52,322 nucleotides of DNA from a virus. Its lineage: Duplodnaviria > Caudoviricetes. The notes under the pieces were generated by a model. The model saw only the letters and a program-made list of their open reading frames with translations, made no database searches and was not told the DNA's origin. Of the stretch, positions 36,612 to 48,533 are shown one piece after another; positions within the stretch are counted from its first letter, which is position 1; every line of letters starts with the position of its first letter. The translations under genes and the position numbers were made by a program. The DNA is taken from IMG/VR virus record IMGVR_UViG_3300011113_000545, positions 1-52,322 of that record; one strand, given 5' to 3'.

Positions 36612-36640
36612 TTGACAAAAAAGACTAAATAAATTACAAT
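36612..36640 (+). promoter_or_regulatory. sigma70-type promoter
   Basis: TTGACA-17-TACAAT. Confidence 0.78.
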
Positions 36641-36650
36641 AGAAACTGTT

Positions 36651-36791
36651 ATGAACACATTCACATCATTATCGCAGATACATTGCAGAGCCAAACAGGC
36701 AGGCTTTATGCCCACCTATTGGTCTGCGATTAGTCTAGATAATGATCGTACACCAGAGGTGACCGGGGTCCAGGGGGATCTTGTAGCGTAA
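36651..36791 (+). CDS. putative attenuator leader peptide (46 aa, all 20 amino acids)
   Basis: MNTFTSLSQIHCRAKQAGFMPTYWSAISLDNDRTPEVTGVQGDLVA; ATG 10 nt after the -10 box. Confidence 0.6.
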   Translation: MNTFTSLSQIHCRAKQAGFMPTYWSAISLDNDRTPEVTGVQGDLVA

Positions 36792-36851
36792 AAACAACAC
36801 TACAAAAAACTCTAAAGGACCCCAGGATTAAAAACCCTGGGGTTTTTGTTT
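36765..36851 (+). terminator. mutually exclusive antiterminator/terminator
   Basis: GGGGTCC(36765-71) pairs with GGACCCC(36817-23); terminator ACCCCAGG(36819-26)/CCTGGGGT(36836-43) followed by a T-run. Confidence 0.75.
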
Positions 36852-36864
36852 ATAAAAGGAGATT

Positions 36865-37026
36865 ATGAGGAAGATAGATTTAAAACGAAGAATGCGTGAG
36901 GTAAGGTTTACGACAGAGCACACTCTAACACCTGAACAGCGTAATAAGTTGATTCAGGATAAATTAGAACGTGCCAGGCTAGACTCTGAAACTCGCAAAC
37001 GAGTTGACAGTCAAACTTACGCATAA
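36865..37026 (+). CDS. small basic hypothetical protein (53 aa)
   Basis: SD AAGGAG; MRKIDLKRRMREVRFTTEHTLTPEQRNKLIQDKLERARLDSETRKRVDSQTYA. Confidence 0.6.
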   Translation: MRKIDLKRRMREVRFTTEHTLTPEQRNKLIQDKLERARLDSETRKRVDSQTYA

Positions 37027-37032
37027 TTTTAT

Positions 37033-37260
37033 ACAGTGTAAAAAGGTGGAAACGAGGTCCACGCTACACACTCTAAAAAGTAGCAAACGGGCGTACTGAA
37101 GCATAAAACCCACGGCGATAACGTGGGGAGTCAGAATCAGGGCAGGGTATCGACCCTGTCATATCCTGCGGCAACGCAGGGTATTCTATAACACACTATC
37201 CTTCGGATCCCAAGCACAAGGGCTTGGGCAAGGACTAACAATAGTGTGTTACAGAATACC
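37033..37260 (+). ncRNA. multi-hairpin structured RNA candidate
   Basis: Hairpins CCCACG/CGTGGG, GGCAGGGT/ACCCTGTC, CCTGCG-GCAA-CGCAGG and a long stem 37180-37260. Confidence 0.5.
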
Positions 37261-37329
37261 TTTGGATGAAAACAGCAGAGTCTCTTTTGACGAGCCTGCG
37301 CCAAACTAGATTTTGGCAACCATAAGGCA

Positions 37330-37358
37330 TTGACAAATATATATGTTGAATATATACT
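37330..37358 (+). promoter_or_regulatory. sigma70-type promoter
   Basis: TTGACA-17-TATACT. Confidence 0.75.
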
Positions 37359-37567: not shown

Positions 37568-37642
37568 TCCTCAGTAGCTCAGCGGTAGAGCAATCGGCTG
37601 TTAACCGATCGGTCATTGGTTCGATCCCAGTCTGAGGAGCCA
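37568..37642 (+). tRNA. tRNA-Asn(GTT)
   Basis: ATCGG-CTGTTAA-CCGAT, GCCA. Confidence 0.93.
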
Positions 37643-37650
37643 GATTTAAT

Positions 37651-37727
37651 GCCCCGGTGACGGAATTGGTATACGTGCTTGCCTTAGAAGCAAGATTCTA
37701 GGAGTTCAAGTCTCCTCTGGGGCACCA
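37651..37727 (+). tRNA. tRNA-Leu(TAG), short variable arm
   Basis: CTTGC-CTTAGAA-GCAAG, ACCA. Confidence 0.88.
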
Positions 37728-37752
37728 AGTTATAGAGTAAATAGATGTATAT

Positions 37753-37826
37753 GCGGGGTTCGTATAGTGGTAATACCTTAGCCTTCCAAGCTAAAGCGAG
37801 GAGTTCGATTCTCCTACCCCGCTCCA
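37753..37826 (+). tRNA. tRNA-Gly(TCC)
   Basis: TTAGC-CTTCCAA-GCTAA, TCCA. Confidence 0.93.
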
Positions 37827-38115
37827 AACAACCCGGTTACACTTTTCCGTTAAGAAAGTGGGCGGGTGGTTCCTCGCCATAACGGCGAACTAGGTGCGTA
37901 GGATCTTACCTTGGTCTCCGCTATTCATGGAGCAGCCAAAAATATCCTAGGGGGAGAACACAACTTAAACCCAGAGCAAAAAATGTGTGGACAGAGTAAC
38001 AGCTCAGTTCAGGGCTTTTGTGGTGAAAGTGGCTGAACAATTTTATAAGTGTATAACACACCCTGCCGATAAGACAGGCTCTGTTTGTGAAAATGTTGTA
38101 TGCTTATAAAATTGA

Positions 38116-38191
38116 TGCGGAGTGTTAGAAGAGGTATCTGGCAAGGCTCATAACCTTGAGGTCGGTGGTTCGATTCCACCCTCCGCTACCA
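38116..38191 (+). tRNA. tRNA-Met(CAT), initiator-like
   Basis: CAAGG-CTCATAA-CCTTG; 1:72 mismatch. Confidence 0.85.
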
Positions 38192-38197
38192 CAATTT

Positions 38198-38271
38198 GGG
38201 TCGTTAGTTTAATGGTAGAACCTCGCTTTTACACGGCGATGACAGCAGTTCGATTCTGTTACGACCTACCA
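38198..38271 (+). tRNA. tRNA-Val(TAC)
   Basis: TCGCT-TTTACAC-GGCGA, ACCA. Confidence 0.9.
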
Positions 38272-38277
38272 GTTTTT

Positions 38278-38351
38278 CTCGGTATAGTGAAATGGTATCA
38301 CCCGACGTTTGGGACGTTGAAGCGCAAGTTCGATTCCTGCTACCGAGACCA
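38278..38351 (+). tRNA. tRNA-Pro(TGG)
   Basis: CGACG-TTTGGGA-CGTTG, ACCA. Confidence 0.9.
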
Positions 38352-38358
38352 ATTTTAT

Positions 38359-38433
38359 GGGCTGTTAGTGATAATGGGAGCACGAGGCCTTTGCACGGCT
38401 TAGGTGGGAGTTCGATTCTCCCACGGTCCACCA
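38359..38433 (+). tRNA. tRNA-Ala(TGC)
   Basis: AGGCC-TTTGCAC-GGCTT, G3:U70, ACCA. Confidence 0.92.
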
Positions 38434-38438
38434 AGTTT

Positions 38439-38503
38439 TAGGATAGTTACAGCAAACTTCAAGCTAAACTTTATGGTTGTCTAGCGACAAAAGCTATCCT
38501 GTT
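38439..38503 (+). ncRNA. CAGCAA-stem RNA, copy 1
   Basis: TAGGATAGT-TA-CAGCAA ... GCTATCCTGTT closing stem. Confidence 0.6.
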
Positions 38504-38510
38504 ATATTAT

Positions 38511-38588
38511 GTCCGCGTAGCTCAGTTGGATTAGAGCACTTGCCTACGAAGCAGGGGGTCAGAGGTTCGAATCCTTTCGCGGACGCCA
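38511..38588 (+). tRNA. tRNA-Arg(ACG)
   Basis: CTTGC-CTACGAA-GCAGG, GCCA. Confidence 0.93.
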
Positions 38589-38592
38589 AAAA

Positions 38593-39321
38593 CTAAAAAG
38601 TTTTTTGTTTGAAATCTTCAGAAAAAACACCGTCGACTCTTATTGAATAACATGCATGTTCTGCTGGATCTGATCCATGGTAGTTGCCTGTATTAAACCA
38701 TAAACAATGTCCTGGTAAATAGATTTTATCATTGTTTGACATATCTAATAAGAAAAACTTTTTTCTGTTATTAAAACTAAGCCAAATAAATTCATCAGAA
38801 TTGGCTTGATTGACGTCTGGAAAATCTTTATGAATTACAGTTGATGTACCTGTGTAATTTAAAAATATTGTTATCCTGCCATAGTCTTTAAAAATATTCT
38901 GATTATCTAACCAATTATAAAAAAAATTTAATTGACTGTCTTCGGGAATTTTTGTACAGTTTGATTCTAAATGTTTGTTAGTATAATTATTGGCGTATCT
39001 TGTTGTAATTGTAAAAGGTCCGCTGGAAATTTCTTCTTCAAATATTATGTAATTACCAAATAAATCTCGGTTACATAAATCAATTAATTCTGTTCTTAAT
39101 TTGTTATTTTCTATAGAATTAATATTTTGTTCAAAAGCGTTTTGATAGTACCATACTGTATTTTCGGGAGCCAGTAAGTTTCCTCTTACATATTTTGTGG
39201 GCTTGATTAAATGGTTATTTCTTGCAATAAATGTTGACACAAAAGGTTTAAGTTCAAATAAACTATTTAAATCAACATAATTATCGAAACTGACAAATGG
39301 TTTGTTGTTAACTAGAAACAT
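38593..39321 (-). CDS. hypothetical protein, possible 2OG/cupin oxygenase
   Basis: IHKD...YHG...SIRVDG pattern; TAAATA upstream. Confidence 0.55.
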   Translation of the reverse strand: MFLVNNKPFVSFDNYVDLNSLFELKPFVSTFIARNNHLIKPTKYVRGNLLAPENTVWYYQNAFEQNINSIENNKLRTELIDLCNRDLFGNYIIFEEEISSGPFTITTRYANNYTNKHLESNCTKIPEDSQLNFFYNWLDNQNIFKDYGRITIFLNYTGTSTVIHKDFPDVNQANSDEFIWLSFNNRKKFFLLDMSNNDKIYLPGHCLWFNTGNYHGSDPAEHACYSIRVDGVFSEDFKQKTF

Positions 39322-39401
39322 GAAAATATTTAGTAAGTTTTTTATCAGCGTTATAATAAGAAATCACTGGTCGATTCGACCAGTGATAATGATTTGAAAA
39401 T

Positions 39402-39479
39402 GCACCGATGGCGGAGCGGCCCAACGCAACTGTCTGCAAAACAGTAAAACCGCAGGTTCAAATCCTGCTCGGTGCTCCA
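39402..39479 (+). tRNA. tRNA-Cys(GCA)
   Basis: ACTGT-CTGCAAA-ACAGT, TCCA. Confidence 0.9.
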
Positions 39480-39523
39480 ACTTAAAACCGAAGTACTACA
39501 AGTCCTACTAAAATGCAGGGTCT

Positions 39524-39598
39524 TTGACAGTAATTCGGTTTTTTGCTATACTAGAGCTTAGACAGTTAGAAATAACTGACGAACAAGTTCTTTAAAAA
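39524..39598 (+). promoter_or_regulatory. sigma70 promoter followed by rrn-like boxB/boxA
   Basis: TTGACA-17-TATACT; hairpin CAGTTA-GAAA-TAACTG (39563-78); GTTCTTTAAAAA (39587-98). Confidence 0.7.
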
Positions 39599-39703
39599 TT
39601 TATGACATATATACCGCTGGGAAGCGGTCACTATATGTAAACGCACTGCCGAACAGTCAAATGGCCATCGCCGATGAGTGGTGCGTTTACATATAGTGAA
39701 TAC

Positions 39704-39787
39704 GCGACTGTGGCGTAATCGGTAGCCGCAGGAGACTTAAAATCTCCCGTCTTTGACGTGCCGGTTCGAGTCCGGCCAGTCGCACCA
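39704..39787 (+). tRNA. tRNA-Leu(TAA), second copy
   Basis: GGAGA-CTTAAAA-TCTCC, variable arm, ACCA. Confidence 0.92.
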
Positions 39788-39855
39788 AGTATTATTGCAC
39801 GATTCGTCTATCGGTTAGGACGCCCTTTTGTATAAATAAAACAGAGGGGTGTAAT

Positions 39856-40530
39856 ATGGCAATAGGCGGATATAGAGAAGGTTCAGGAAGATCAAAGAGT
39901 GGTTACTATAATGGAATTTATTGTGGTAGCACTTATGAACTTTGTTGGGTGATCTATAATATAGACCATCAAATAGAATTTACAAGATTTCCTGGAAAGT
40001 TAGAAAAAGACGGTATAACTTATTATCCTGATTTTCTACTATCTGATGGAAAGACGATAGTAGAAACAAAAGGATACGAGAAACAAGAATCTGTTGACAA
40101 TAAAACAAAGGTTGCTGAATCTTTTGGTTATTCTGTAAAAGTGTTGCGTAAAGAGGATTTACAATATGCTTTTGAATATGTTACTAAAAAATATGGAACA
40201 AAGAAATATTTTGAACTGTATGATGGATATAAACCAAAATATAAACATCTTTGTGAATGTTGTAAAATTGAGTTCGAAACAGATAGAAAGATAAAAGCCG
40301 AAACAAAATTTTGTAGCAGAGTTTGTGCCGGCAGATATCAAAAATCTAAGAACGTAATGACAGACGAGATGAAGAAGAAAATTTCTGATTCATTGCTTGG
40401 TAAAAAAGTTAAACCATATAAAAGAAAATATAAACAAGTTTGGATTACTGACGGTAAAGTAAACACTAGAATAAAAGATGGTGATAAAATTTCTGAAGGA
40501 TTCAAGCAAGGTAGAACAATGTCGCATTAG
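39856..40530 (+). CDS. putative free-standing homing endonuclease (PD-(D/E)xK + Zn finger + NUMOD-like)
   Basis: STYEL, YYPDF...VETKG, C..C...FCS..C, EMKKKISDSLLG, WITDG..N. Confidence 0.8.
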   Translation: MAIGGYREGSGRSKSGYYNGIYCGSTYELCWVIYNIDHQIEFTRFPGKLEKDGITYYPDFLLSDGKTIVETKGYEKQESVDNKTKVAESFGYSVKVLRKEDLQYAFEYVTKKYGTKKYFELYDGYKPKYKHLCECCKIEFETDRKIKAETKFCSRVCAGRYQKSKNVMTDEMKKKISDSLLGKKVKPYKRKYKQVWITDGKVNTRIKDGDKISEGFKQGRTMSH

Positions 40531-40595
40531 ATTATCGGTTAGATCAACAGCCTTTCACGCTGTAGAGACGGGTTCGATTCCCGTATGCGACTCCA
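40521..40595 (+). tRNA. tRNA-Glu(TTC), nested in the split tRNA
   Basis: ACAGC-CTTTCAC-GCTGT, GTCGCAT/ATGCGAC, TCCA; overlaps the ORF stop codon. Confidence 0.9.
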
Positions 40596-40742
40596 CTAAT
40601 ATTCGGAAAGACGAGTTCGACTCTCGTATCGTGTACCAGTTTTATTGGGGGAGTGGCGAGTATGGTGAATGCCCAATTTGGCAGAGACCCAATGCGCCTA
40701 TTCTTAAATGACCATGTGAGGCGCCCCTTATCATTTTTTTTT

Positions 40743-40831
40743 GGATCCTGTTCCCAGCGGCGGACTGTAAATTCGTTGCCTTAATATGCTGGGTGGTTGG
40801 CGGTTAGGTTCGATTCCTTCAGGGTCCACCA
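40743..40831 (+). tRNA. atypical tRNA-Tyr(GTA)
   Basis: GGATCCT/AGGGTCC-ACCA, GCGGA-CTGTAAA-TTCGT, T loop; no normal D arm. Confidence 0.65.
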
Positions 40832-40836
40832 AATTT

Positions 40837-40915
40837 GGCTCGTTAGCATAGTCTGGCCTATTGCGCCGCCCTGTCACGGCGGAGGACACCGGTTCGAATC
40901 CGGTACGGGTCGCCA
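40837..40915 (+). tRNA. tRNA-Asp(GTC)
   Basis: CCGCC-CTGTCAC-GGCGG, GCCA. Confidence 0.93.
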
Positions 40916-40918
40916 AGT

Positions 40919-41321
40919 TTTGCAAGTGTAGATATTGTGAAAGCAAGGCGTCGAAAACCTTGTGAGTTGGGATTAATTATCCTAGTAGCAAACAAGTAAC
41001 AATTAGTACTACGTACCTCTAACCCTGCCGGCCTTGTATCAAGGGTAAAATGATAGCGAATGAAGGAGGCGCTATTACTTGCAAACCTAACGTTCCGTCG
41101 TCAACGGATAGTCTGACCCAGACGATGAGAAGTGCAGTGACAAGCACGGGTGGTTCTGAGATTTGGAATATAAGTCTCACAGTAGGAGTACTGCGGTCCA
41201 ACCTAACCGGCGTTAGCAACACGATAGCGGTCCCTGTCGGGAAGCGGGTGGAGGGTGTGTGAGATTTGCGGGGCAACCCAAGAGATGATGCACTATAATT
41301 ACCGCCGGGGGATGCAGAGCA
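40919..41321 (+). ncRNA. large GC-rich structured ncRNA candidate
   Basis: ~400 nt without a credible ORF; closing stem TTTGCAAGT/ACTTGCAAA and many hairpins. Confidence 0.55.
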
Positions 41322-41364
41322 TTTTAAAGGGTATAATATATTCTTTAAAATGTTTTGACACAAT

Positions 41365-41459
41365 GGTGAGTTGGATGAGTTGGCTTAAATCACTTTCCTG
41401 CTAAGAAAGAGACTTGGCAAAAACCAGGTCCGTGGGTTCGAATCCCACACTCACCACCA
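41365..41459 (+). tRNA. tRNA-Ser(GCT)
   Basis: CTTTC-CTGCTAA-GAAAG, long variable arm. Confidence 0.92.
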
Positions 41460-41466
41460 ATTAATT

Positions 41467-41931
41467 ATGATACGATTTTTATTTGCAACAATTTTATTTT
41501 TTCCTATTTCTTTGTATGCCTGTGTGGGATATGTCATCGGCTTTAAAGGCAGCGACGATATATTTGACCATCAAGCATTTAATCAATATGTGAATCAAAT
41601 TGATTATTGCAGTAAACTTTTTAGTTGGCATCGACCCAACGATGCCGTAAAATTTATTAACAGCATAGATGAAAAATATCAGTTATACGGTTTTAGCAAA
41701 GGTGCTGAAACAATTAGTAAATTGCTGAAAAATTCTTCTATTAGAAAACCTGAATACGTTTTAACTATCGGTGCATTTAGAACCACTGATGTTGATTTTA
41801 GAAAATACGACGTCAAATTTGATAATTATTTTGACGATTCGGGGCGAGGACAAAAAAGTCCCGGAGTATTTTTATCAGTCAGTCATTCTAAAATTCAAAA
41901 AGAAGTTAACACAGTAATTTTTAAAAAATAA
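41467..41931 (+). CDS. secreted alpha/beta-hydrolase-like protein
   Basis: Signal-peptide-like N-terminus, GFSKG (GxSxG). Confidence 0.55.
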   Translation: MIRFLFATILFFPISLYACVGYVIGFKGSDDIFDHQAFNQYVNQIDYCSKLFSWHRPNDAVKFINSIDEKYQLYGFSKGAETISKLLKNSSIRKPEYVLTIGAFRTTDVDFRKYDVKFDNYFDDSGRGQKSPGVFLSVSHSKIQKEVNTVIFKK

Positions 41932-41963
41932 GTTTGCCTTTGGTAATTTTACTAAATATTTGT

Positions 41964-42590
41964 ATGATCAAATATTGCTACAAACTTAGTAAACTACCGC
42001 CGATACTTGATACTGGACTTCCATTAATAAATGATCACGGGGTAAAACCAGTAGATTATTCGAAAACGTTTTATCATAGACTCGACGAAACACCGACAGT
42101 GTTTAATCAACAATTGTTTGATTGGCTTGATTCGTTAAATTTATGTTATATAACTGCAGGCTACATGTATGTTCCAAAAAATGGTAGTGTTTTGCCGCAT
42201 GTTGATAGTCGATTATTTTTTAATCAACAAAAATTTGTAGATTTTTGTAAAATCAATTGGCGCATAGGCGGCCCAGGTTCTGTGGCAAAATGGTATGATA
42301 GTTTGCCTGGATTTGAATTAACTTCTCAAGATATGTTACCAGAATCTATTACAACCGATAACCAAACTCATACTAATTTTTGTTTACCGGTAGATATTGA
42401 TAAATTTGAGGTATCGTTTTCTATGGAACATCCAGAAATATGTTTGTTTAATCCTGGCAGATTGCACAGTTTTGACGCTGGTCCATACGCACAACATATA
42501 ATATCTGTGGCAGTGGGCATAAAAAATACAAGTTCAGTATTAAAATGGAATCAAGGAATAAAAACTTTTAAAAACTATATTGTCCATTGA
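41964..42590 (+). CDS. hypothetical protein, possible cupin/2OG oxygenase
   Basis: PHVD...KINW...LH motif; ATG at 41964 after TAAATA. Confidence 0.55.
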   Translation: MIKYCYKLSKLPPILDTGLPLINDHGVKPVDYSKTFYHRLDETPTVFNQQLFDWLDSLNLCYITAGYMYVPKNGSVLPHVDSRLFFNQQKFVDFCKINWRIGGPGSVAKWYDSLPGFELTSQDMLPESITTDNQTHTNFCLPVDIDKFEVSFSMEHPEICLFNPGRLHSFDAGPYAQHIISVAVGIKNTSSVLKWNQGIKTFKNYIVH

Positions 42591-42642
42591 TAGTATATCA
42601 ATATATCAAATTATTTAAATTAATCAGTATAAGTAAATTTAC

Positions 42643-42718
42643 GCTCCTGAAGCATTGCTGGCGATGCGCCGGATTTGTAACCCGGAGATAATCTGTTCGA
42701 TTCAGATCGGGAGCACCA
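42643..42718 (+). tRNA. tRNA-Thr(TGT)
   Basis: CCGGA-TTTGTAA-CCCGG, ACCA. Confidence 0.88.
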
Positions 42719-42725
42719 AATAATT

Positions 42726-42799
42726 GCGGGTATGATGTAAAGGTAACCTGAATCCTTGCCAAGGATTATTTCCGAGTTCGATTCTCGGTACCCGCTCCA
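42726..42799 (+). tRNA. tRNA-Gly(GCC)
   Basis: AATCC-TTGCCAA-GGATT, TCCA. Confidence 0.9.
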
Positions 42800-42806
42800 A
42801 ATTTTC

Positions 42807-42896
42807 GGAAGTGTGGCAGAGTCCGGCTTATTGCGTTAGTCTTGAAAACTAAAGGCTCGAAAGGGTCCGTGAGTTCGAATCTCACCGCTTCCACCA
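42807..42896 (+). tRNA. tRNA-Ser(TGA)
   Basis: TTAGT-CTTGAAA-ACTAA, long variable arm. Confidence 0.92.
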
Positions 42897-42901
42897 ATTA
42901 T

Positions 42902-42975
42902 GTATCCCTAATGTAATGGCAGCATCACAGTCTCCAAAACTGTTCGTCGGGGTTCGAGTCCCTGGGGGTACGCCA
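42902..42975 (+). tRNA. tRNA-Trp(CCA)
   Basis: ACAGT-CTCCAAA-ACTGT, GCCA. Confidence 0.9.
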
Positions 42976-42976
42976 A

Positions 42977-43159
42977 TTATTTTTTGTTAGTGTTTATTTT
43001 ATGTAAGATTCTGTTTCTGATGGCCGAATCATCGGCCATCATGCTTGCAATAAATCCTATTAAACAGCCTAGCTGATAAGCAGCTCGATGTCGATTATGT
43101 TTATCGGGCATCGATTTAATGAATGCAAATAGAAGGTCTAGATCTTTTTGATTTGCCAT
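42977..43159 (-). CDS. hypothetical protein
   Basis: 60-aa ORF, TAAATA just upstream on the minus strand. Confidence 0.55.
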   Translation of the reverse strand: MANQKDLDLLFAFIKSMPDKHNRHRAAYQLGCLIGFIASMMADDSAIRNRILHKINTNKK

Positions 43160-43331
43160 ATTATATTTACAGTCTTAGTCGATTAGGAAATACGACAACA
43201 AATTGATTTTATATCTGGTGGTATTCTGTCAGATTTCGATACTTAGAATCTTATGAATGCAATATATAATTCTATAAATATTTTTATAGTTAATAATAGA
43301 TAGCTAAGAAACAATAAATTAATTTTGTATA

Positions 43332-44936
43332 ATGATACACGGCATAATTCTCACAGACAATACTTTTAGTAACATGGACATTACTTGTCATAGAGGATCT
43401 GGTGCCCATAAAATTGCAACTCATCTAAGAAATCATGGCTATAACATAGAAGTTGTCGATTATTGTTTAAGCTGGTCACAGGAAGAATTAGAATTATTAC
43501 TGGCTAAACTGATTTCAAAAGATACATTGTTTTTAGGTATAGGCAGTAATTTATTTTTAGATAGATCCCACTTTGACAATAACATTCTTTGGTTTAAAAA
43601 CAAATATCCTAAGATAGCAGTTATTCTAGGGGGAAATCAAACTTTGTCACGTTCTACCCCAGGAGTTGATTATTATGTGGAAGGGTATGCAGAAAATGCT
43701 ATACTGCACCTATTAGAATATCTTCGGGGAAATATTAATAAAGATGCTATTCATTGGAGTGCTAATGCCGAAGGCAAAAATCTAATAGATGCTCTTGGTA
43801 ATTACGGCCAAGTTGACACCAGGGATTTAAGTATACAATACTTACCTTCGGATTTTTTACAACCTGAACAAACACTGGGTCTAGAAACAGCAAGAGGCTG
43901 TATCTTTAAATGCAAATTTTGCACATATCCATTGATCGGAAAAAGTAAATTAGACTATATTAGAGATTCTTCTACCATTGTTCGAGAACTACAACAAAAT
44001 TACGATCAATGGGGAATTACAAATTATCTAATCAACGAAGATACTTTTAATGACAGCATTGAAAAACTAGAGCTGCTTGAAAAAGCTATTACTAGTTTGC
44101 CTTTTAAAATTAATTTTACTGCGTATGCCAGATTGGATCTGATAGTAGCAAAACCTCATAGCATTGAATTACTCAGAAATATGGGTATGAAAGGTGTACA
44201 TTTCGGCATCGAAACTTTTAGTAAAGATGCTGGAAGGTTAGTGGGAAAAGGATTTTCGGGACAACGTCTTAAAGATGGATTATTATGGTGGAAAGAACAA
44301 ACACCAGACATTTCCACTGGATGCTCTTTGATAGTTGGGTTGCCAGGAGACACCAGCGATTATCATGCAGAAAATGAATGGTTTGCTAACAATGAAATTG
44401 ATTATTGGTTTTGGCAACCTTTATATATTACTAAGAATCAGCAATTCGTTTATTCGAGTGAGTTTAGTAAAGATTATAACAAGTATGGTCTTGAAATTAT
44501 GTCAGATTCTGAAGTGTCTGCTGAAGTTAGAAATCTTTGGAAATTAGAGTATAAATTTACAAAAAAATCTCATCCGTTTAGCTATAGATCGCTGCTCAAT
44601 GAGAACTTCAGAAGTAAAGTAAATTATTGGAAAGATATTAAATCTGGCCAAAATTATTTTACCGCACTAAAATTAAGTTGTGAACTTAATCAAAGTGTCA
44701 AAAATCAAAAGGTTAGTCCGTGGACTATGTTTGATTATGTAAGTTTAGGATACAAAATAGATGAAATAAGAACATGGGGTAAACATATCCCTGTTCCGCC
44801 TGTGCGTGAAATAAAAATTCAAGCAGATAACAGAATAAATGAATATAAACGCAAAAAACTTGCATATGATTACTTAGAATTTTATAGTCATAGGCAACAA
44901 TCAATTCGACGAACTATTCCTATAGTTCTACAGTAA
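43332..44936 (+). CDS. B12-binding-domain radical SAM protein
   Basis: ETARGCIFKCKFC, EDTFND, FGIET, LIVGLPG; N-terminal cobalamin-binding-like domain. Confidence 0.88.
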   Translation: MIHGIILTDNTFSNMDITCHRGSGAHKIATHLRNHGYNIEVVDYCLSWSQEELELLLAKLISKDTLFLGIGSNLFLDRSHFDNNILWFKNKYPKIAVILGGNQTLSRSTPGVDYYVEGYAENAILHLLEYLRGNINKDAIHWSANAEGKNLIDALGNYGQVDTRDLSIQYLPSDFLQPEQTLGLETARGCIFKCKFCTYPLIGKSKLDYIRDSSTIVRELQQNYDQWGITNYLINEDTFNDSIEKLELLEKAITSLPFKINFTAYARLDLIVAKPHSIELLRNMGMKGVHFGIETFSKDAGRLVGKGFSGQRLKDGLLWWKEQTPDISTGCSLIVGLPGDTSDYHAENEWFANNEIDYWFWQPLYITKNQQFVYSSEFSKDYNKYGLEIMSDSEVSAEVRNLWKLEYKFTKKSHPFSYRSLLNENFRSKVNYWKDIKSGQNYFTALKLSCELNQSVKNQKVSPWTMFDYVSLGYKIDEIRTWGKHIPVPPVREIKIQADNRINEYKRKKLAYDYLEFYSHRQQSIRRTIPIVLQ

Positions 44937-44948
44937 TTTAATAATTTC

Positions 44949-45043
44949 GCCCCTATAGTTTAATGGTAGAACTCCGGCCTTATACACCGGCATCGGCGCC
45001 AGATTAGCGCACAGTCCAGGTTCGAATCCTGGTGGGGGTACCA
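44949..45043 (+). tRNA. tRNA-Ile(TAT) with long variable arm
   Basis: CCGGC-CTTATAC-ACCGG, ~25-nt variable region, ACCA. Confidence 0.8.
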
Positions 45044-45068
45044 TATAACCTTTCAAATTGAAAGGACA

Positions 45069-45097
45069 TTGACAATAAATCCAATTTATTGTATAAT
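45069..45097 (+). promoter_or_regulatory. sigma70-type promoter
   Basis: TTGACA-17-TATAAT. Confidence 0.85.
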
Positions 45098-45120
45098 AAT
45101 GAAATAGTAAGGAGAACGAC

Positions 45121-45261
45121 ATGAAACGAAAGTGTCATAAACAGATCGTCGCACAACGTAACCCCTTCGTTGTTGCGGCTTTGAAACGTAAAGCGGGTAG
45201 CCACCGTAAGAGCAATAAAGCTCTGCGTCGGGCACAAAATCAAGTACCTTTGGGGGTATAG
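45121..45261 (+). CDS. small basic protein (46 aa), possibly ArfA-like
   Basis: SD AAGGAG; MKRKCHKQIVAQRNPFVVAALKRKAGSHRKSNKALRRAQNQVPLGV; stop TAG lies inside tRNA-Lys. Confidence 0.65.
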   Translation: MKRKCHKQIVAQRNPFVVAALKRKAGSHRKSNKALRRAQNQVPLGV

Positions 45262-45328
45262 CTCAACTGGCTAGAGCAACCGGCTTTTAACCGGTAGGTT
45301 CAGAGTTCAAGTCTCTGTGCCCCTACCA
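45252..45328 (+). tRNA. tRNA-Lys(TTT)
   Basis: ACCGG-CTTTTAA-CCGGT, ACCA. Confidence 0.92.
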
Positions 45329-45489
45329 TATAAAAACACATTCTGGCCAAGCGCATTGGCTTGTTGGTTACAGCCCTGGGCCTCGGGGTGGTGGGTTCGA
45401 TTCCCATAAGTGCCTGATCAGCACCGAGTGTGTTTCTATATGGTAAAGGAGTAATTAACCGTTACTGTAGTCGGAAGTCATGACTCCGA

Positions 45490-45623
45490 CGACCCGTAGT
45501 AGTGTAATGGCTAACACGCAGAGAGACATGGGTTCGAATCCCATACGTTCCTCCAGGGGCGTTAGCTTAGTGGTCTAGAGCGCGGCGAGATAAGGGTTTC
45601 GAAATCCCTTCCACAATGGGTCG
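45490..45623 (+). ncRNA. anticodon-less double tRNA-elbow RNA
   Basis: D-like arm, T arm, ACGTTCC-TCCA-GGGGCGT stem, D arm, T-like arm, closed by CGACCC/GGGTCG. Confidence 0.55.
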
Positions 45624-45773
45624 CTATATTGAAGCACATTCGTTGATCGGTGAGCCCATGGCAGATCCGCAAATGTCAAAGAGTTGTCACTCTCAGTTTC
45701 GGTCTTGGCCATACCGCGCCAGGTATCGGGTAAGACGGTTTAATTCCGTAGTGTGTTTCAATATAGTATTTTT

Positions 45774-45847
45774 ACCCGGTTAGCTCAAAAGTAGAGCATT
45801 CGACTGATAATCGAAAGACAGAGGAGCGTTACCTCTACTGGGTACCA
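45774..45847 (+). tRNA. tRNA-Ile(GAT) with non-canonical D and T loops
   Basis: TTCGA-CTGATAA-TCGAA; T loop AGCGTTA, D loop AAAAGTA. Confidence 0.8.
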
Positions 45848-45849
45848 AA

Positions 45850-47106
45850 TTAAATTTCAATATCTTTTAGTAATTTTGCTATAGTCGGAAATGTCTTAGT
45901 ATAATCGGTGCCACGACGTCGATCTAACTCAGTTAAGTATGTTTTTAGTTGACATTGTAAATTTGGATTAGATTGACTATGTGCTATCTCTTTGGCAATG
46001 CCTTCGAAATATTCTTTATATTTCATTTTGTCGGGATCTCCCATAGCATCAAATTTATCAATTGCTTGTTGATATCCCATGTTTAATAACATGGGGCCGA
46101 ATATAGTGGGATGAAAATATTTATGTCCTCCAGTTTTCATTAGAGACCAGTATACTGTTCTGACCCGACTCCAACTATTAATTTTTTCAACAAGATCTGG
46201 TAAACTCGGAATTGTTAGCGGCCCAAGGGCAGAGTTAATGTTTAGCACTATATCTGTGTTGTTTAGAACATATTCAAAATTCTTTTCAAAAAGATCCAGC
46301 TGTAGACCATAGCGAACATATTCTGCGGGTTTACCCCAACAATCGATGCTGCCTATTAGATTAATTTGATTTAATTGGGAATTGATTTTTAATTTTTGTA
46401 TCTGATCAATTTGATATTTAAATTTTTCATGATCTATTGTAAGATTACTAAAGAATACAAGATCTAGATTGGGTAGCTTTTTAGTTTCTATAAAATTTAA
46501 TAACCGTTGTGTTTCTTTTTGTATGAACGGCTCGCCCCCTAAAATTAGAAGTTTATTCAGATTCTGAATGTTTTTATCTAGCCACTTAAACATTTGATCG
46601 GTTGCATCAGAAAAATTTTCAGGTATTTGAAATTCTGAATTAATATGAACTCCATTTTTATTGAAGGTACCAAATTTAATATTTTCTTGATTAATTTGAC
46701 TGCTAAACTTGGGCGTACAATATGTGCATTTTAGATTACAAACATTGCTAAAATAAATTTCTAGTATTCTTGGGCTTATATTTACCGCTGTTAAATCTGT
46801 ATCTAGTTCAGGTGGTGCAGTAATTCCTGGAAAATCTAAATGTATCATACGGTCGCTGGTTCCGCCGGCAACTTCGATAGACTTACAATGTTCGCAGCCG
46901 CGCCCAGGCCATTTGCCTTCGAGCATTAATCGGCGATCCTGAAGTTTTTCGGGAGTATTATGAAAATTAAAAGTGTTTAAATCAAACTTGGTTTGATTAA
47001 CTCTATGACAACTTGCAGTAGACAAAGACGTAAGAAATACTGTGCTATGACTCCATTTTAATTGACATGCAGTCGCAGTTTTAATCGGAAATATTTTTTG
47101 ATTCAC
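45850..47106 (-). CDS. radical SAM protein, paralog of 32342-33586
   Basis: CNLKCTYC, GGEP, FPIKT..C.LKW; GTG at 47106 is the likely start because the longer call overlaps a tRNA. Confidence 0.85.
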   Translation of the reverse strand: MNQKIFPIKTATACQLKWSHSTVFLTSLSTASCHRVNQTKFDLNTFNFHNTPEKLQDRRLMLEGKWPGRGCEHCKSIEVAGGTSDRMIHLDFPGITAPPELDTDLTAVNISPRILEIYFSNVCNLKCTYCTPKFSSQINQENIKFGTFNKNGVHINSEFQIPENFSDATDQMFKWLDKNIQNLNKLLILGGEPFIQKETQRLLNFIETKKLPNLDLVFFSNLTIDHEKFKYQIDQIQKLKINSQLNQINLIGSIDCWGKPAEYVRYGLQLDLFEKNFEYVLNNTDIVLNINSALGPLTIPSLPDLVEKINSWSRVRTVYWSLMKTGGHKYFHPTIFGPMLLNMGYQQAIDKFDAMGDPDKMKYKEYFEGIAKEIAHSQSNPNLQCQLKTYLTELDRRRGTDYTKTFPTIAKLLKDIEI

Positions 47107-47153
47107 TGAATACTTAGCTAAGTTACTTAATGCAAGTTTAAAACATTTAACAT

Positions 47154-47229
47154 AGAAGCGTAGCATAGCGGCTAATGCGCCACCTTCATACGGTGTTTAT
47201 CGTGGGTTCGAGTCCCACCGCTTCTACCA
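47154..47229 (+). tRNA. tRNA-Met(CAT), elongator-like
   Basis: CCACC-TTCATAC-GGTGT, ACCA. Confidence 0.88.
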
Positions 47230-47238
47230 AATCATTGT

Positions 47239-47316
47239 TGGGGGTTAGCTTAGTTTGGCCTAAAGCAACGGTCTTTGAAATCGTGATCACTGGTTCGAAT
47301 CCAGTACCCTCTGCCA
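47239..47316 (+). tRNA. tRNA-Gln(TTG)
   Basis: ACGGT-CTTTGAA-ATCGT, GCCA. Confidence 0.9.
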
Positions 47317-47319
47317 AAT

Positions 47320-48129
47320 TTATATATTTACAAAATATTTTTCAACGTGATGCCAGTATAACTCTGCAAGTTTTTGATGAAATAAAGGTCCGGGGTGTGA
47401 TCCATCTCTGGCCAGATCACTGCTTCGGAAATTAATTTGAAAAGTGTCTATCAAAGGAAAAGAATCAAACAATGATTTAATGTCATTGGGTGTACTTTCC
47501 CAAGATGTACAACATATTTTTGTGTCATTTTGACGACATATAGAGTCAATCGTCATCAAACTACGTTCAGTCTGATGAATTGAAAAATATGAATCAGTAA
47601 ACAAAGTATTAACGTAAGTGCCAAGAGGCGCAGTGGAATCAGTCCAACGAGGTATCCAGTTCCGATATTTATTACTTTCAACTTTGTATTCTCTTCTACA
47701 TATTGGAGGTATCAAACTAAACACAAATTTTATTTTTGTGTTTAATATTGTTGATAAAAAATATAAATTTCTAGCCTGAGTATCTATTCCGGTCGCACAA
47801 AGACCTAAATTCCAGTACGGAATATTCTTGTTGGTTTTTTGTCTTATTTTTTCTAATAACAAATAAGACCAAGTCTCAGTTTGTCTAAGACCTATTCCTT
47901 CGGTAAGACTGCATCCCAGAAATACTATTGGAATTTCTGAGTGAATATCAAACTCATCGCATCTGAATCCGTGTCCATTAAATTTGTACTCAATGTCGTG
48001 TTGAGAATAAGGATTGGAAAATCTTGAAGATATTGCGTTATAGTTGCTAAGAGTGTCGGATCCTAGCCATTCAGTGGTTGTATTGGCTCTACTTTTTATA
48101 GATGGATCTACTAAGGTGTTAGATGTCAT
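47320..48129 (-). CDS. SGNH-hydrolase-like protein
   Basis: FLGCSLTEGIG, NLG, DGSHPG. Confidence 0.65.
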   Translation of the reverse strand: MTSNTLVDPSIKSRANTTTEWLGSDTLSNYNAISSRFSNPYSQHDIEYKFNGHGFRCDEFDIHSEIPIVFLGCSLTEGIGLRQTETWSYLLLEKIRQKTNKNIPYWNLGLCATGIDTQARNLYFLSTILNTKIKFVFSLIPPICRREYKVESNKYRNWIPRWTDSTAPLGTYVNTLFTDSYFSIHQTERSLMTIDSICRQNDTKICCTSWESTPNDIKSLFDSFPLIDTFQINFRSSDLARDGSHPGPLFHQKLAELYWHHVEKYFVNI

Positions 48130-48375
48130 ATCAACATATTTATATGCTTGGTTAGTAACGAAAAAATCAAGTATGGTTAATCTTTAGTTAAGGGTTCAAA
48201 TTATGTACCCCGTACCAGTTAGCGGGATAGACGGTGACTTTGAGTCCTGCCCAGCCTAGCACAAGGACTCACTTGTGCGACTACAGCAGAGTGGTTAGGA
48301 GCAGTATTTAGACTTGGTCATTCGAGACAATCCAGCGAGTCCTCTCAGGAGGATAGTTGGGCTCCCCATTTTTAT

Positions 48376-48450: not shown

Positions 48451-48451
48451 T

Positions 48452-48528: not shown

Positions 48529-48533
48529 AATTT

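What the first reader, a model, noticed from the sequence alone, without database searches (positions are those of the whole stretch)
36612..37026. Pan-amino-acid transcription attenuator at the head of the tRNA region
A sigma70 promoter is followed almost immediately by a 46-codon ORF. It contains all 20 amino acids within its first 37 codons and uses 36 distinct codons, including four different Ser codons and three each for Ala, Leu and Val. Its 3' end (GGGGTCC, TTGTAG) can pair with CTACAA and GGACCCC, and the latter overlaps the 5' arm of a strong terminator. This is the classical attenuator geometry: a ribosome reaching the stop masks the antiterminator and transcription terminates, while a stall anywhere upstream allows read-through. 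Known leaders (trp, his, thr) sense one to three amino acids. Inference: this one would sense loss of almost any tRNA, such as host anti-phage tRNA cleavage, and switch on a 53-aa basic protein, ncRNAs and extra tRNA transcription. Caveat: downstream tRNAs also have their own promoters (37330, 39524 and others).
Basis: partly seen in the sequence, partly recalled or inferred. Interest (0 to 1): 0.88.

Follow-up and report, generated by a model that had tools for sequence, protein, structure and literature searches.

The report
All-amino-acid leader gating phage tRNAs
A giant phage carries, in front of its tRNA genes, a short test gene that nearly always holds all 20 amino acids and ends inside an RNA switch, which probably lets tRNA transcription through whenever translation falters.

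Summary
The window (a fragment of an uncultured jumbo myovirus) has a consensus promoter, a 46-codon ORF with all 20 amino acids and 36 distinct codons, and alternative antiterminator and terminator pairings.

I found the same element in 167 related viral loci.
- Of 117 distinct full-length leader peptides, 107 hold all 20 amino acids and 10 hold 19. Null models give 2-20%.
- Cys, His and Tyr are mostly single-copy. They sit at many different positions but are almost never lost.
- In 97 of the 107 complete leaders, the set is already complete upstream of the antiterminator strand.
- The antiterminator (GGGGTCC:GGACCCC) and the terminator share one strand. Both show compensatory changes.
- The stop codon sits at the apex of the antiterminator hairpin.
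- All 81 members with at least 3 kb of downstream sequence have same-strand tRNA genes within 3 kb.

Best reading (about 0.7): a ribosome-mediated transcription attenuator. It terminates when the leader is translated smoothly and reads through when the ribosome stalls at any codon.

The closest precedent is the mycobacterial whiB7 uORF, a broad sensor of amino-acid starvation. This element differs in its conserved completeness, its phage origin and its tRNA-array target. All evidence is computational. Start signals for the leader are weak, and the trigger is untested.

The parts
36612..36640 (+). Sigma-70-type promoter: TTGACA, 17 nt, TACAAT.
   Evidence: 11 of 12 matches. It is conserved in the six closest versions. 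A promoter-like site of at least 10 of 12 matches lies just before the leader in 112 of 114 distinct relatives.
36651..36791 (+). Leader ORF: 46 sense codons plus TAA. It holds all 20 amino acids and 36 distinct codons.
   Evidence: The frame is open in all 121 distinct homologous coding sequences, while frames +1 and +2 carry a mean of 3.2 and 4.3 stops. All-20 content is found in 107 of 117 distinct peptides.
36691..36722 (+). Central hairpin inside the ORF (CCAA..UUGG, AGG..CCU, GGC..GCC). It includes the invariant Trp codon.
   Evidence: These pairs are 57-97% paired across 117 sequences, mostly through sequence conservation, with few double changes. Its role is unknown.
36765..36771 (+). 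A: 5' strand of the antiterminator (GGGGTCC), codons 39-41 of the leader.
   Evidence: No search pattern ever fixed this sequence, yet it is near-invariant. It covaries with C.
36773..36813 (+). Inner helices of the antiterminator. P2 is GGGG 36773-36776 with CUCU 36810-36813. P3 is UUGUAG 36781-36786 with CUACAA 36800-36805. The stop codon 36789-36791 lies at the apex.
   Evidence: An extended hairpin is the minimum-energy fold in 108 of 114 distinct segments. In the model-fitted alignment P2 is 65.7% paired and P3 62.8%.
36817..36823 (+). C: shared strand (GGACCCC). It pairs either with A (antiterminator) or, through CCCC, with D (terminator).
   Evidence: Its last base covaries with both partners.
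36820..36847 (+). Intrinsic terminator: CCCCAGG, 9-nt loop, CCTGGGG, then T5.
   Evidence: 99.9% of cells paired, 3 of 7 pairs with double changes.
36856..37026 (+). Shine-Dalgarno site AAGGAG and a 53-aa basic protein, the first gene behind the attenuator.
   Evidence: Homologs follow the terminator in 102 of 157 members. The third codon position is the most variable. The predicted fold is a two-helix hairpin with pLDDT 88.4. No known family matches.
37030..37320 (+). Structured non-coding RNA of unknown kind, lying between the small gene and the next promoter.
   Evidence: z -6.59; compensatory changes; a homolog on the same strand downstream of the terminator in 51 of 157 loci. No Rfam match.
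37330..37358 (+). Internal sigma-70-type promoter: TTGACA, 17 nt, TATACT.
   Evidence: A promoter-like site in this interval is present in 44 of 114 distinct relatives.
37568..51183 (+). tRNA array downstream of the attenuator: 30 of the window's 32 tRNA genes, all on the + strand.

Best explanation
This is a ribosome-mediated transcription attenuator at the head of a jumbo phage's tRNA array.

Proposed mechanism:
1. Host RNA polymerase starts at the consensus promoter and transcribes a roughly 200-nt leader.
2. The leader holds a 42-54-codon ORF. Its last 7-9 codons form the 5' strand of a long antiterminator hairpin (A:C plus two inner helices), and its stop codon sits at the tip of that hairpin.
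3. If a ribosome follows the polymerase closely through the whole ORF, it occupies or unwinds that 5' strand as the shared strand C emerges. C then pairs with D, the terminator forms, and transcription stops at the U-tract.
4. If the ribosome is late, because it waits at a codon for any scarce aminoacyl-tRNA or never loaded, the antiterminator folds first. The polymerase then reads on into a small conserved protein gene, a structured RNA and the tRNA genes.
5. Selection keeps at least one codon for each of the 20 amino acids in the part of the ORF upstream of the antiterminator strand. The element therefore reports on the supply of every amino acid or tRNA, not just one.

Shown here: the conserved open frame, the all-20 content and where it lies, the covarying and mutually exclusive helices, the position of the stop codon, and the link to tRNA arrays.

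Inferred: translation of the ORF, coupling of ribosome and polymerase, the direction of the switch, and the physiological trigger.
For: (1) Family. A nucleotide profile finds one copy in each of 167 of 230 held sources. Of these, 159 are full length and 157 have a called terminator.

(2) Open frame. All 121 distinct coding sequences are open from an invariant ATG. Frames +1 and +2 carry a mean of 3.2 and 4.3 stops. Base composition predicts a 6.4% chance that 46 codons stay open.

(3) All-20 content.
- 107 of 117 distinct peptides hold all 20 amino acids and 10 hold 19.
- Among members found by the terminator pattern alone, which puts no constraint on the ORF, the count is 68 of 75.
- Nulls: family composition 3.7% (maximum 11% in 2000 draws); column shuffle 20.5% (maximum 34%); other small ORFs in the same loci 28 of 1229, or 2.3%; downstream small proteins 2 of 71.

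(4) Presence is kept but position is not.
- Cys is single-copy in 98 of 117 peptides, absent in 3, and spread over 21 alignment columns.
- His is single-copy in 104 and occupies 15 columns. Tyr is single-copy in 94 and occupies 17 columns.
- On a tree there are at least 47, 41 and 39 changes of position for Cys, His and Tyr, against 3, 0 and 0 changes of presence.
- Tyr sits at column 31 in 52 peptides, at column 45 in 47, elsewhere in 18, and never at both.

(5) A prediction specific to this model. 97 of 107 complete leaders are already complete upstream of A. Shuffling residue order gives 26.3 +/- 4.5, with a maximum of 40 in 1000 permutations.

(6) Codons.
- Leaders use 35.6 distinct codons on average, against 32.3-32.7 expected from synonymous resampling.
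- The window's leader exercises 26 of the 29 tRNA species encoded in the window (25 by the stricter count). Gene windows of 46 codons use 18.3 +/- 2.0, and 0 of 2361 reach 25.

(7) The switch.
- A:C is 98.7% paired, with double changes at 4 of 7 pairs (first pair: GC 66, AU 27, GU 1, other 6).
- The terminator is 99.9% paired, with double changes at 3 of 7 pairs. The shared column pairs as CG 71, UG 17, UA 12.
- Single loci carry an inserted pair (L160) or two double changes matched in all three strands (L211).
- Without D, the minimum-energy fold holds all 7 A:C pairs in 108 of 114 distinct segments.
- The two conformers are nearly equal in energy: -27.0 against -26.2 kcal/mol, difference 0.8 +/- 1.8.
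- At least the first base of the stop codon is paired in the 5' strand at the tip in 97 of 114 segments, and the whole codon is unpaired in 13.

(8) Context.
- 81 of 81 members with at least 3 kb of downstream sequence have a tRNA gene within 3 kb.
- All 2129 downstream tRNA genes lie on the same strand.
- Only 33 of 103 members have a tRNA within 3 kb upstream.
- 70 of 114 have no strong promoter-like site between the terminator and the first tRNA.

(9) Not an ordinary protein gene. Entropy at codon positions 1, 2 and 3 is 1.13, 1.06 and 1.14. The neighbouring small protein gene gives 1.23, 1.06 and 1.46.

(10) Precedent for the logic. In the whiB7 attenuator, efficient uORF translation gives termination. 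Removing the Trp or His codons from the uORF reduced the response to Trp deprivation and abolished the response to His deprivation (PMC10274678, passages read).
Against: - There is no experimental evidence of any kind.
- Start signals for the leader are weak or unusual. Of 121 distinct versions, 21 have the -10 box 8-12 nt before the ATG (a 5' UTR of a few bases, no Shine-Dalgarno site). Another 67 have a Shine-Dalgarno-like word, mostly 14-22 nt upstream. The remaining 33 have none.
- The ORF lacks the usual relaxation at the third codon position. The case for translation therefore rests on the open frame and the amino-acid pattern.
- I found no conserved strand that would sequester A when nothing is translated, and no pause site. 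An untranslated leader should therefore read through, and tight coupling has to be assumed.
- A lies 14-20 nt upstream of the stop, at or beyond the trailing edge of a terminating ribosome. Blocking of A:C at that moment is inferred, not shown.
- P2 and P3 are only 65.7% and 62.8% paired in the fitted alignment. The window's long-range helix in the 5' half is poorly kept: 58.0% paired against 34.8-43.8% in slid controls.
- 10 of 117 leaders lack one amino acid (Leu 4, Cys 3, and Phe, Asp and Val once each). Two diverged partial members, L029 and L121, have 19 and 18.
- The sequences are related. The phylogenetically paired test of the Tyr swap had only 4 supported pairs and no power. The tree also included the leader's own columns.
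- In this window a strong internal promoter (37330) and others feed the tRNAs independently.
- RNA contigs from one freshwater metatranscriptome cover the leader and the downstream gene at similar depth, 15.5 and 15.8. Contigs cannot measure termination.
Confidence: 0.7

Rival explanations
1. An ordinary small-protein gene followed by an ordinary terminator. The 46-aa product has its own function, and the A:C hairpin only stabilises the mRNA or tunes termination.
For: The frame is conserved and part of the peptide is well conserved (..AKQ.GFMP.YW....NDRTPE..). The Trp position is invariant.
Against: - Third codon positions are no more variable than the others, unlike the neighbouring real small gene.
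- Single-copy Cys, His and Tyr move among 15-21 columns while staying present. A folded or binding peptide would not tolerate that easily.
- Conserved blocks are conserved as nucleotides. GGGGTCC is kept in L014 although it is read in another frame there.
- A:C and the terminator are mutually exclusive, covary through one shared strand, and are nearly equal in energy.
Confidence: 0.08
2. An RNA-only switch. The 5' half of the leader binds a small molecule, protein or tRNA that decides between antiterminator and terminator, and the open frame is incidental.
For: - The leader is strongly structured (z -6.52).
- It has a well-conserved central hairpin.
- Canonical translation start signals are lacking in most members.
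- There is no third-position relaxation.
Against: - An incidental frame would not stay open in 121 of 121 distinct versions while the other frames fill with stops.
- It would not hold all 20 amino acids in 91% of peptides.
- It would not place them upstream of A.
- It would not put the stop at the hairpin apex.
- No Rfam family, T-box or riboswitch matched. The best leader-type match was His_leader at 18.6 bits against a gathering score of 49.
- The window's 5' long-range helix is not conserved.
Confidence: 0.07
3. Mainly a trans-acting small RNA, or a dual-function RNA. The promoter and terminator make a stable RNA of about 200 nt, termination is largely constitutive, and the alternative pairing serves folding or processing.
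For: - The unit runs from a strong promoter to a strong terminator.
- RNA contigs cover it in a metatranscriptome in which the adjacent 407-aa gene has zero depth.
- Released attenuator RNAs can act in trans in other systems (PMC6614838, abstract start seen in the listings).
Against: This does not explain the all-20 content or where it lies. It also does not explain the fixed position at the head of same-strand tRNA arrays, without an intervening promoter in 70 of 114 relatives. It is compatible with the attenuator reading as a second role, not a replacement for it.
Confidence: 0.08

Closest known systems
Mycobacterial whiB7 uORF transcription attenuator (PMC10274678; passages read)
   Same: - A fairly long, compositionally diverse upstream ORF.
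- Efficient translation gives a rho-independent terminator. Translation stress or starvation for many amino acids gives an antiterminator and read-through.
- Which starvations are sensed depends on which amino acids the uORF holds. The M. smegmatis uORF has every amino acid except Cys.
- The Trp-less variant responded significantly less to Trp deprivation, and the His-less variant did not respond to His deprivation.
   Different: - The whiB7 uORF varies among species, lacks several amino acids in M. tuberculosis and is enriched for Ala.
- It controls a transcription factor for intrinsic drug resistance.
- Here completeness itself is conserved (107 of 117), with single copies that move.
- The element is viral and gates a tRNA array and a small protein.
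- No sequence relation was tested.
Classical amino-acid operon attenuators (trp, his, leu, thr, ilv, pheA leaders). My account of them is recalled textbook knowledge; Rfam models were searched.
   Same: - A leader ORF directly behind the promoter.
- A mutually exclusive antiterminator and intrinsic terminator.
- A ribosome that completes the leader favours termination.
   Different: - Those leaders are 14-32 codons long, with runs of one to three cognate amino acids. They have a 1:2 pause or anti-antiterminator hairpin and control biosynthetic genes.
- Here there is no run of any codon, all 20 amino acids are present, no region-1 partner was found, and the target is tRNA genes.
- The Rfam His_leader match is far below threshold (18.6 against 49 bits).
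Antibiotic-responsive ribosome-mediated attenuators of resistance genes, for example vmlR (PMC9226507; only the title and abstract start were seen)
   Same: A leader region and a transcription terminator respond to impaired translation in general, not to one amino acid.
   Different: They are triggered by drug-stalled ribosomes and control resistance factors in Firmicutes. Their leaders are not reported, in what I saw, to be compositionally complete.
Leaderless poly-Cys short ORF attenuators of mycobacteria (bioRxiv 10.1101/834739; title and abstract start seen)
   Same: This is a precedent for a regulatory short ORF on a leaderless or near-leaderless transcript. 21 of 121 versions here, including the window's, have that layout.
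   Different: Those sense cysteine through runs of Cys codons. This element holds one Cys codon among all 20 amino acids.
T-box riboswitch (recalled; Rfam holds it)
   Same: It reads tRNA status and controls genes of the translation apparatus through an antiterminator/terminator choice.
   Different: A T-box binds one uncharged tRNA directly and needs no ribosome. No T-box match was found in the window.

Membership tests
Ribosome-mediated transcription attenuator (general class) | A short ORF in the 5' leader, on the same transcript as the regulated genes. | tested here: met
   ORF 36651-36791 lies behind promoter 36612-36640. It is open in 121 of 121 distinct homologs.
Ribosome-mediated transcription attenuator (general class) | Mutually exclusive antiterminator and intrinsic terminator that share a strand. 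| tested here: met
   A:C is 98.7% paired with 4 of 7 pairs compensated. C:D is 99.9% paired with 3 of 7 compensated. The shared column covaries with both partners. The energy difference is 0.8 +/- 1.8 kcal/mol.
Ribosome-mediated transcription attenuator (general class) | The end of the ORF is placed so that a ribosome finishing it interferes with the antiterminator. | tested here: met
   The last 7-9 codons make up the 5' strand in 108 of 117 peptides. The stop lies at the hairpin tip. The effect on folding is inferred.
Ribosome-mediated transcription attenuator (general class) | The leader ORF is translated, and read-through depends on its translation. | not testable with these tools
   Only indirect evidence: the open frame and the amino-acid pattern. 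Start signals are weak.
Classical amino-acid biosynthetic operon leaders (trp, his, leu, thr, ilv, phe) | Clustered codons for the cognate amino acid or acids. | tested here: not met
   No runs were seen. Ser is the commonest residue at 12.8%, and all 20 amino acids are present.
Classical amino-acid biosynthetic operon leaders (trp, his, leu, thr, ilv, phe) | The regulated genes make the sensed amino acid. | tested here: not met
   Downstream are a 53-aa protein of no known family, a structured RNA and tRNA genes.
Classical amino-acid biosynthetic operon leaders (trp, his, leu, thr, ilv, phe) | A region 1:2 pause or anti-antiterminator hairpin. | tested here: inconclusive
   A local partner for A exists in the window and some relatives but not in all (read by eye). 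The 5' long-range helix is 58% paired against 35-44% in controls.
Classical amino-acid biosynthetic operon leaders (trp, his, leu, thr, ilv, phe) | A match to a curated leader model in Rfam. | tested here: not met
   Only tRNA matches reach the gathering score. His_leader scores 18.6 bits against 49, E 2.4.
whiB7-type broad translation-stress uORF attenuator | A long, diverse uORF whose composition sets which starvations are sensed, with termination when translation is efficient. | tested here: inconclusive
   The composition and geometry fit. The response itself is untested. Homology to whiB7 leaders was not tested and is not claimed.
T-box riboswitch | Specifier loop and T-box antiterminator bulge; a match to the Rfam model. 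| tested here: not met
   No match at the gathering score or at E up to 10 in 36560-37570.

The most novel reading that the evidence does not exclude
The leader is a universal decoding probe that evolved to hold one codon for each of the 20 amino acids, and in this window codons for 26 of the phage's 29 tRNA species. Loss of any single aminoacyl-tRNA would stall the ribosome and open transcription into the phage's own replacement tRNA set. The loss could come from starvation, from phage-induced decay of host tRNAs, or from host anticodon nucleases. The element would then be a self-regulating tRNA homeostat and a sensor of tRNA-targeting immunity, widespread in uncultured freshwater jumbo phages.
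Probability: 0.5. Interest if true: 0.92.

Novelty: new variant of a known kind. Interest (0 to 1): 0.83.

Why it matters
Why phages carry tRNA genes, and how those genes are controlled, are open questions. Recent papers link phage tRNAs to escape from tRNA-cleaving defences (PMC10264068, PMC11464382, PMC11555353; titles and abstract starts seen). A conserved attenuator in front of the tRNA array would be a dedicated control device. In seven full-text searches I found no such device described for phage tRNA genes. It would tie tRNA expression to decoding performance.

The evolutionary pattern is also unusual: selection on the presence of each amino acid, not on its position. It gives a clean sequence signature by which similar probe ORFs could be sought elsewhere.

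The idea is directly testable. The promoter is a sigma-70 consensus and the whole unit is about 240 nt. It can be placed before a reporter, or into a reconstituted transcription-translation system, and challenged by leaving out one amino acid or one tRNA at a time.

Tried and rejected
- Cultured relatives. Megablast and blastn of the region against 50,697 phage records gave only a 39-base tRNA-like match or nothing. tblastn of the 407-aa neighbour and of the 53-aa protein gave no match. I could therefore name no cultured relative or host.
- Cellular genomes. A composite pattern scan of one genome per prokaryote species gave 19 stretches. Only one (L242, a 6.2-kb contig binned with a Polynucleobacter MAG) is a real member. 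That is a host hint at best, and possibly mis-binning.
- RNAalifold on the MAFFT alignment A1 found only the terminator, because the alignment was not structure-aware. I replaced it with a covariance model and per-sequence folds.
- The window's long-range helix in the 5' half of the ORF is not well conserved. I dropped it as a defined part.
- The paired phylogenetic test of the Tyr column swap had only 4 supported pairs and no power. It counts neither for nor against.
- RNA evidence. One freshwater metatranscriptome, held as contigs with a 0.14 share of words, was laid. It shows that the tRNA region, the leader and the downstream gene occur in an RNA library in which the adjacent 407-aa gene has zero depth. 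It cannot show ends, strand or termination. Parts without cover mean nothing.
- Small protein. There was no Pfam or NCBIfam match, and only a weak match to an unnamed PHROG (E 0.001). There was no PDB fold match. The best PDB sequence match, ATP synthase delta at E 0.002 over 23 residues, I take as spurious. All 120 listed of the 356 homologs are unnamed or 'hypothetical protein'.
- A nascent-peptide arrest motif (Trp..Asp..Pro spacing, recalled from TnaC) was considered. It was not pursued, because no test was available.
- Literature. Seven full-text searches found no description of an all-amino-acid leader or of an attenuator before phage tRNA genes. Subscription journals are largely missing from the library, and supplements were closed.

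Rows dropped.
- Of 167 profile hits, 8 were partial. Four were cut by contig ends: L054, L082, L098 and L105. Four had a diverged 5' half: L029 with 19 amino acids, L121 with 18, and L065 and L081 with all 20 in 35 residues.
- Two full-length hits had no callable terminator: L166, and L205 at a contig end.
- For the covariance-model alignment I used 100 of 114 distinct 3' domains. The 14 left out are named.
Full report
**What the window is.**
The window is a complete IMG/VR virus record of 52,322 bases. It is linear and estimated 15% complete, so it is a fragment of a genome of roughly 350 kb. It encodes a tail sheath, a tail tube and a T4-type large terminase. It also carries 32 tRNA genes, all on the + strand, between 36158 and 51183. 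No cultured phage in 50,697 GenBank records resembles the region, either as DNA or through two neighbouring proteins.

**The observation.**
- TTGACA, 17 nt, TACAAT at 36612-36640.
- An ATG 10 nt after the -10 box.
- A 46-codon ORF (36651-36791) with 36 distinct codons, reaching all 20 amino acids by codon 37.
- GGGGTCC (36765-36771) and TTGTAG (36781-36786) pairing with GGACCCC (36817-36823) and CTACAA (36800-36805) in the minimum-energy fold.
- A terminator CCCCAGG..CCTGGGG plus T5 (36820-36847) that shares CCCC with GGACCCC.

Only 0.84% of 45-codon windows in the window's own long ORFs hold all 20 amino acids, and 0.04% hold 36 or more codons. Of 49 small ATG-ORFs of similar length in six frames, this is the only complete one.

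**Finding relatives.**
- The 407-aa gene upstream led to 20 related loci. These held six distinct versions of the leader at 71-92% identity. All six had an open frame of 43-47 codons and all 20 amino acids.
- Of the 90 new loci from the second scan, 43 are members and the rest are chance matches in unrelated genes.
- A nucleotide profile finds exactly one copy in each of 167 of 230 held sources. Of these, 159 are full length and 157 have a callable terminator.
- One further copy lies on a 6.2-kb contig binned with a Polynucleobacter MAG. The other 18 pattern matches in cellular genomes are chance.

**The ORF is maintained, but not as a normal protein.**
All 121 distinct coding sequences are open from an ATG that is invariant in the 86-sequence alignment A1. 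Frames +1 and +2 carry 3.2 and 4.3 stops on average, and base composition gives a 6.4% chance that 46 codons stay open. Lengths are 42-54 codons. The stop is TAA in 110 of 117 peptides and begins 20-34 nt before GGACCCC.

Yet variability is the same at the three codon positions (1.13, 1.06, 1.14 bits). The small gene next door shows the usual excess at position 3 (1.23, 1.06, 1.46). Conserved blocks are conserved as nucleotides. In L014 a one-base insertion puts GGGGTCC in another frame, and it is kept.

**All 20 amino acids is a selected property.**
- Of 117 distinct peptides, 107 hold all 20 and 10 hold 19.
- Members found through the terminator pattern, which says nothing about the ORF, give 68 of 75.
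- Drawing peptides from the family's own composition gives 3.7% (maximum 11%). Shuffling residues within alignment columns gives 20.5% (maximum 34%).
- Other small ORFs in the same loci give 28 of 1229, and the downstream small proteins give 2 of 71.

The rare residues behave oddly.
- Cys is present exactly once in 98 of 117 peptides and absent in 3, but occupies 21 alignment columns.
- His occurs once in 104 peptides over 15 columns. Tyr occurs once in 94 over 17 columns.
- On a quick tree the position state changes at least 47, 41 and 39 times, while presence changes 3, 0 and 0 times.
- Tyr is at column 31 in 52 peptides, at column 45 in 47 and elsewhere in 18, and never at both 31 and 45.

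Caveats: alignment noise and a weakly resolved tree, which included the leader's own columns, inflate the position counts. The paired test of the Tyr swap had only 4 supported pairs, so it says nothing.

**Two model-specific checks.**
- A stall can favour the antiterminator only if it happens upstream of strand A. In 97 of the 107 complete leaders, all 20 amino acids already occur before A. Shuffling residue order within each peptide gives 26.3 +/- 4.5, with a maximum of 40 in 1000 permutations.
- Leaders use more distinct codons than their amino-acid sequences require: 35.6 against 32.3-32.7, and above expectation in 96-97% of cases. The window's leader calls on 26 of the 29 tRNA species encoded in the window (25 by the stricter count). 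Gene windows of 46 codons use 18.3 +/- 2.0, and 0 of 2361 reach 25.

Leader codon usage is unlike that of the phage genes; GAG, for example, is 90% against 17%. That may reflect RNA structure as much as sensing.

**The switch.**
A covariance model of the 3' domain aligned 100 distinct copies, with one hit per source.
- The A:C helix is paired in 98.7% of cells. Four of its 7 pairs show changes on both sides; the first pair is GC 66, AU 27, GU 1, other 6.
- The terminator is paired in 99.9% of cells, with 3 of 7 pairs compensated. The column shared with A:C pairs as CG 71, UG 17, UA 12.
- One base of strand C therefore covaries with both alternative partners.
- Single loci add an inserted base pair in A and C (L160), a second compensated pair (L227), and two double changes mirrored in A, C and D (L211).
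- No search pattern ever fixed strand A.

Folding each of 114 distinct A-to-D segments gave the following.
- Without D, the minimum-energy structure is one extended hairpin containing all 7 A:C pairs in 108 cases. GGAG/CUYC and GUGUA/UACAC-type inner helices appear in the folds printed.
- At least the first base of the stop codon is paired in the 5' strand at the tip in 97 of 114 segments. The whole codon is unpaired in 13.
- The antiterminator and terminator conformers average -27.0 and -26.2 kcal/mol, a difference of 0.8 +/- 1.8.

In the fitted alignment the inner helices are only 65.7% and 62.8% paired, above the slid controls but not strong.

**How it most likely works.**
The last 7-9 codons of the ORF form the whole 5' strand of the antiterminator. 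A ribosome that keeps pace with the polymerase is inside that strand when C and D emerge, so C pairs with D and transcription ends. A ribosome delayed anywhere in the first 35 or more codons, or absent, leaves the antiterminator free to fold first, and the polymerase reads through.

This is inference from geometry. Three things weaken it.
- A itself lies 14-20 nt upstream of the stop, at the trailing edge of a terminating ribosome.
- No pause site or anti-antiterminator was found.
- Start signals are weak: 21 of 121 versions are near-leaderless, 67 have a distant Shine-Dalgarno-like word, and 33 have none.

**What it controls.**
- All 81 members with at least 3 kb of downstream sequence have a tRNA gene within 3 kb, usually 190-700 nt away.
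- All 2129 downstream tRNA genes lie on the same strand. Only 33 of 103 members have a tRNA within 3 kb upstream.
- A promoter-like site of at least 10 of 12 matches precedes the leader in 112 of 114 distinct members. 70 of 114 have none between the terminator and the first tRNA.
- Directly behind the terminator, 102 of 157 members have a well-initiated gene for a 50-60-aa protein (motif HTLT.EQ..KLIQDK.ERA). It is predicted to be a two-helix hairpin with pLDDT 88.4. It has no known family, fold match or named homolog.
- A structured RNA homologous to 37030-37320 follows in at least 51 of 157 members.
- In this window an internal promoter at 37330 also feeds the array.

**Expression.**
One freshwater metatranscriptome, held as contigs, has zero depth over the 407-aa gene. 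It has depth over the tRNAs, the leader (15.5) and an exact 282-nt contig at 36855-37136 (15.8). That shows the region occurs as RNA, and nothing about termination.

**Comparison with what is known.**
The mechanism belongs to ribosome-mediated attenuation. It fails two defining features of the classical amino-acid operon leaders, namely codon runs and biosynthetic targets. It also matches no Rfam leader.

The closest precedent is the whiB7 uORF of mycobacteria (PMC10274678; passages read).
- Efficient uORF translation gives termination.
- Knockdown of genes related to 18 of 20 amino acids activates whiB7.
- The M. smegmatis uORF has every amino acid except Cys.
- The Trp-less variant responded significantly less to Trp deprivation, and the His-less variant did not respond to His deprivation.

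That work shows that single codons suffice for sensing. It makes the present reading mechanistically credible, and it also means the principle is not new.

What is new here is the conserved completeness with mobile single-copy residues, the viral setting, and the tRNA array as target. Seven full-text searches found no description of such an element. The library lacks most subscription journals, and supplements were closed.

**Verdict.**
The mechanism is inferred at about 0.7. This is a new variant of a known kind, and interest is high. The physiological trigger (starvation, decay of host tRNAs, or tRNA-cleaving defence) is open.

Noticed in passing
window 37030-37320 (+): A strongly structured RNA (MFE -107.6 kcal/mol, z -6.59). 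It shows compensatory changes among relatives, for example CCCACGG/CGTGGGG against CCCGCGG/CGCGGGG and CCCATGG/CATGGGG. There is no Rfam match. A homolog lies on the same strand, either 14-49 nt or about 190-230 nt after the attenuator's terminator, in 51 of 157 loci by a single-sequence search. Its kind is unknown.
   Followed up: partly
window 36865-37026 (+): A small basic protein family (50-60 aa, motif HTLT.EQ..KLIQDK.ERA). It is predicted to be a two-helix hairpin. A profile search found 356 homologs in metagenomes, and all 120 listed are unnamed or 'hypothetical protein'. It is always the first gene behind the attenuator where it is present.
   Followed up: partly
window 36120-36148 and 36439-36467 (+): tRNA-Met (36158-36235) and tRNA-Leu-TAA (36477-36567), just upstream of the attenuator, each have their own near-perfect sigma-70 promoter (11 of 12 and 12 of 12 matches). 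A 68-codon ORF (36250-36456) lies between them.
   Followed up: no
window 44949-45043 (+): An unusually long tRNA (92-95 nt) with a long extra arm after the anticodon stem. ARAGORN calls it Ile with anticodon TAT, and the Rfam tRNA model scores 55.8 bits. No tRNA-Tyr is called in the window, although tRNA-Tyr-GTA is the commonest first tRNA behind the attenuator in relatives (44 of 157).
   Followed up: partly
window 32342-33586 and 43332-44936 (+): Two radical-SAM proteins. One has a weak QueE-like PHROG match. The other has a Radical_SAM match and a sub-threshold B12-binding match (19.8 bits against a cutoff of 32.1) and sits inside the tRNA array. They could be tRNA-modification enzymes.
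   Followed up: no
window 34893-36116 (+): A 407-aa protein with no Pfam or PHROG family. It is conserved at 49-99% identity in 20 viral loci and lies directly upstream of the tRNA region. Loci that are 99% identical in this protein are only 87% identical across the leader region, which suggests faster change or exchange of the leader.
   Followed up: no
locus L242 (genome contigs), about 5716-5927 (+): A copy of the leader and attenuator lies on a 6.2-kb contig binned with a Polynucleobacter MAG. This is either a host hint for this phage group or a mis-binned phage contig. ARAGORN called no tRNA on the stretch held.
   Followed up: partly
window 37379-37558 (+): A 59-codon ORF behind the internal promoter (37330) ends 10 nt before tRNA-Asn (37568). 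It has no family match. I did not examine whether it is a second leader-like unit.
   Followed up: no
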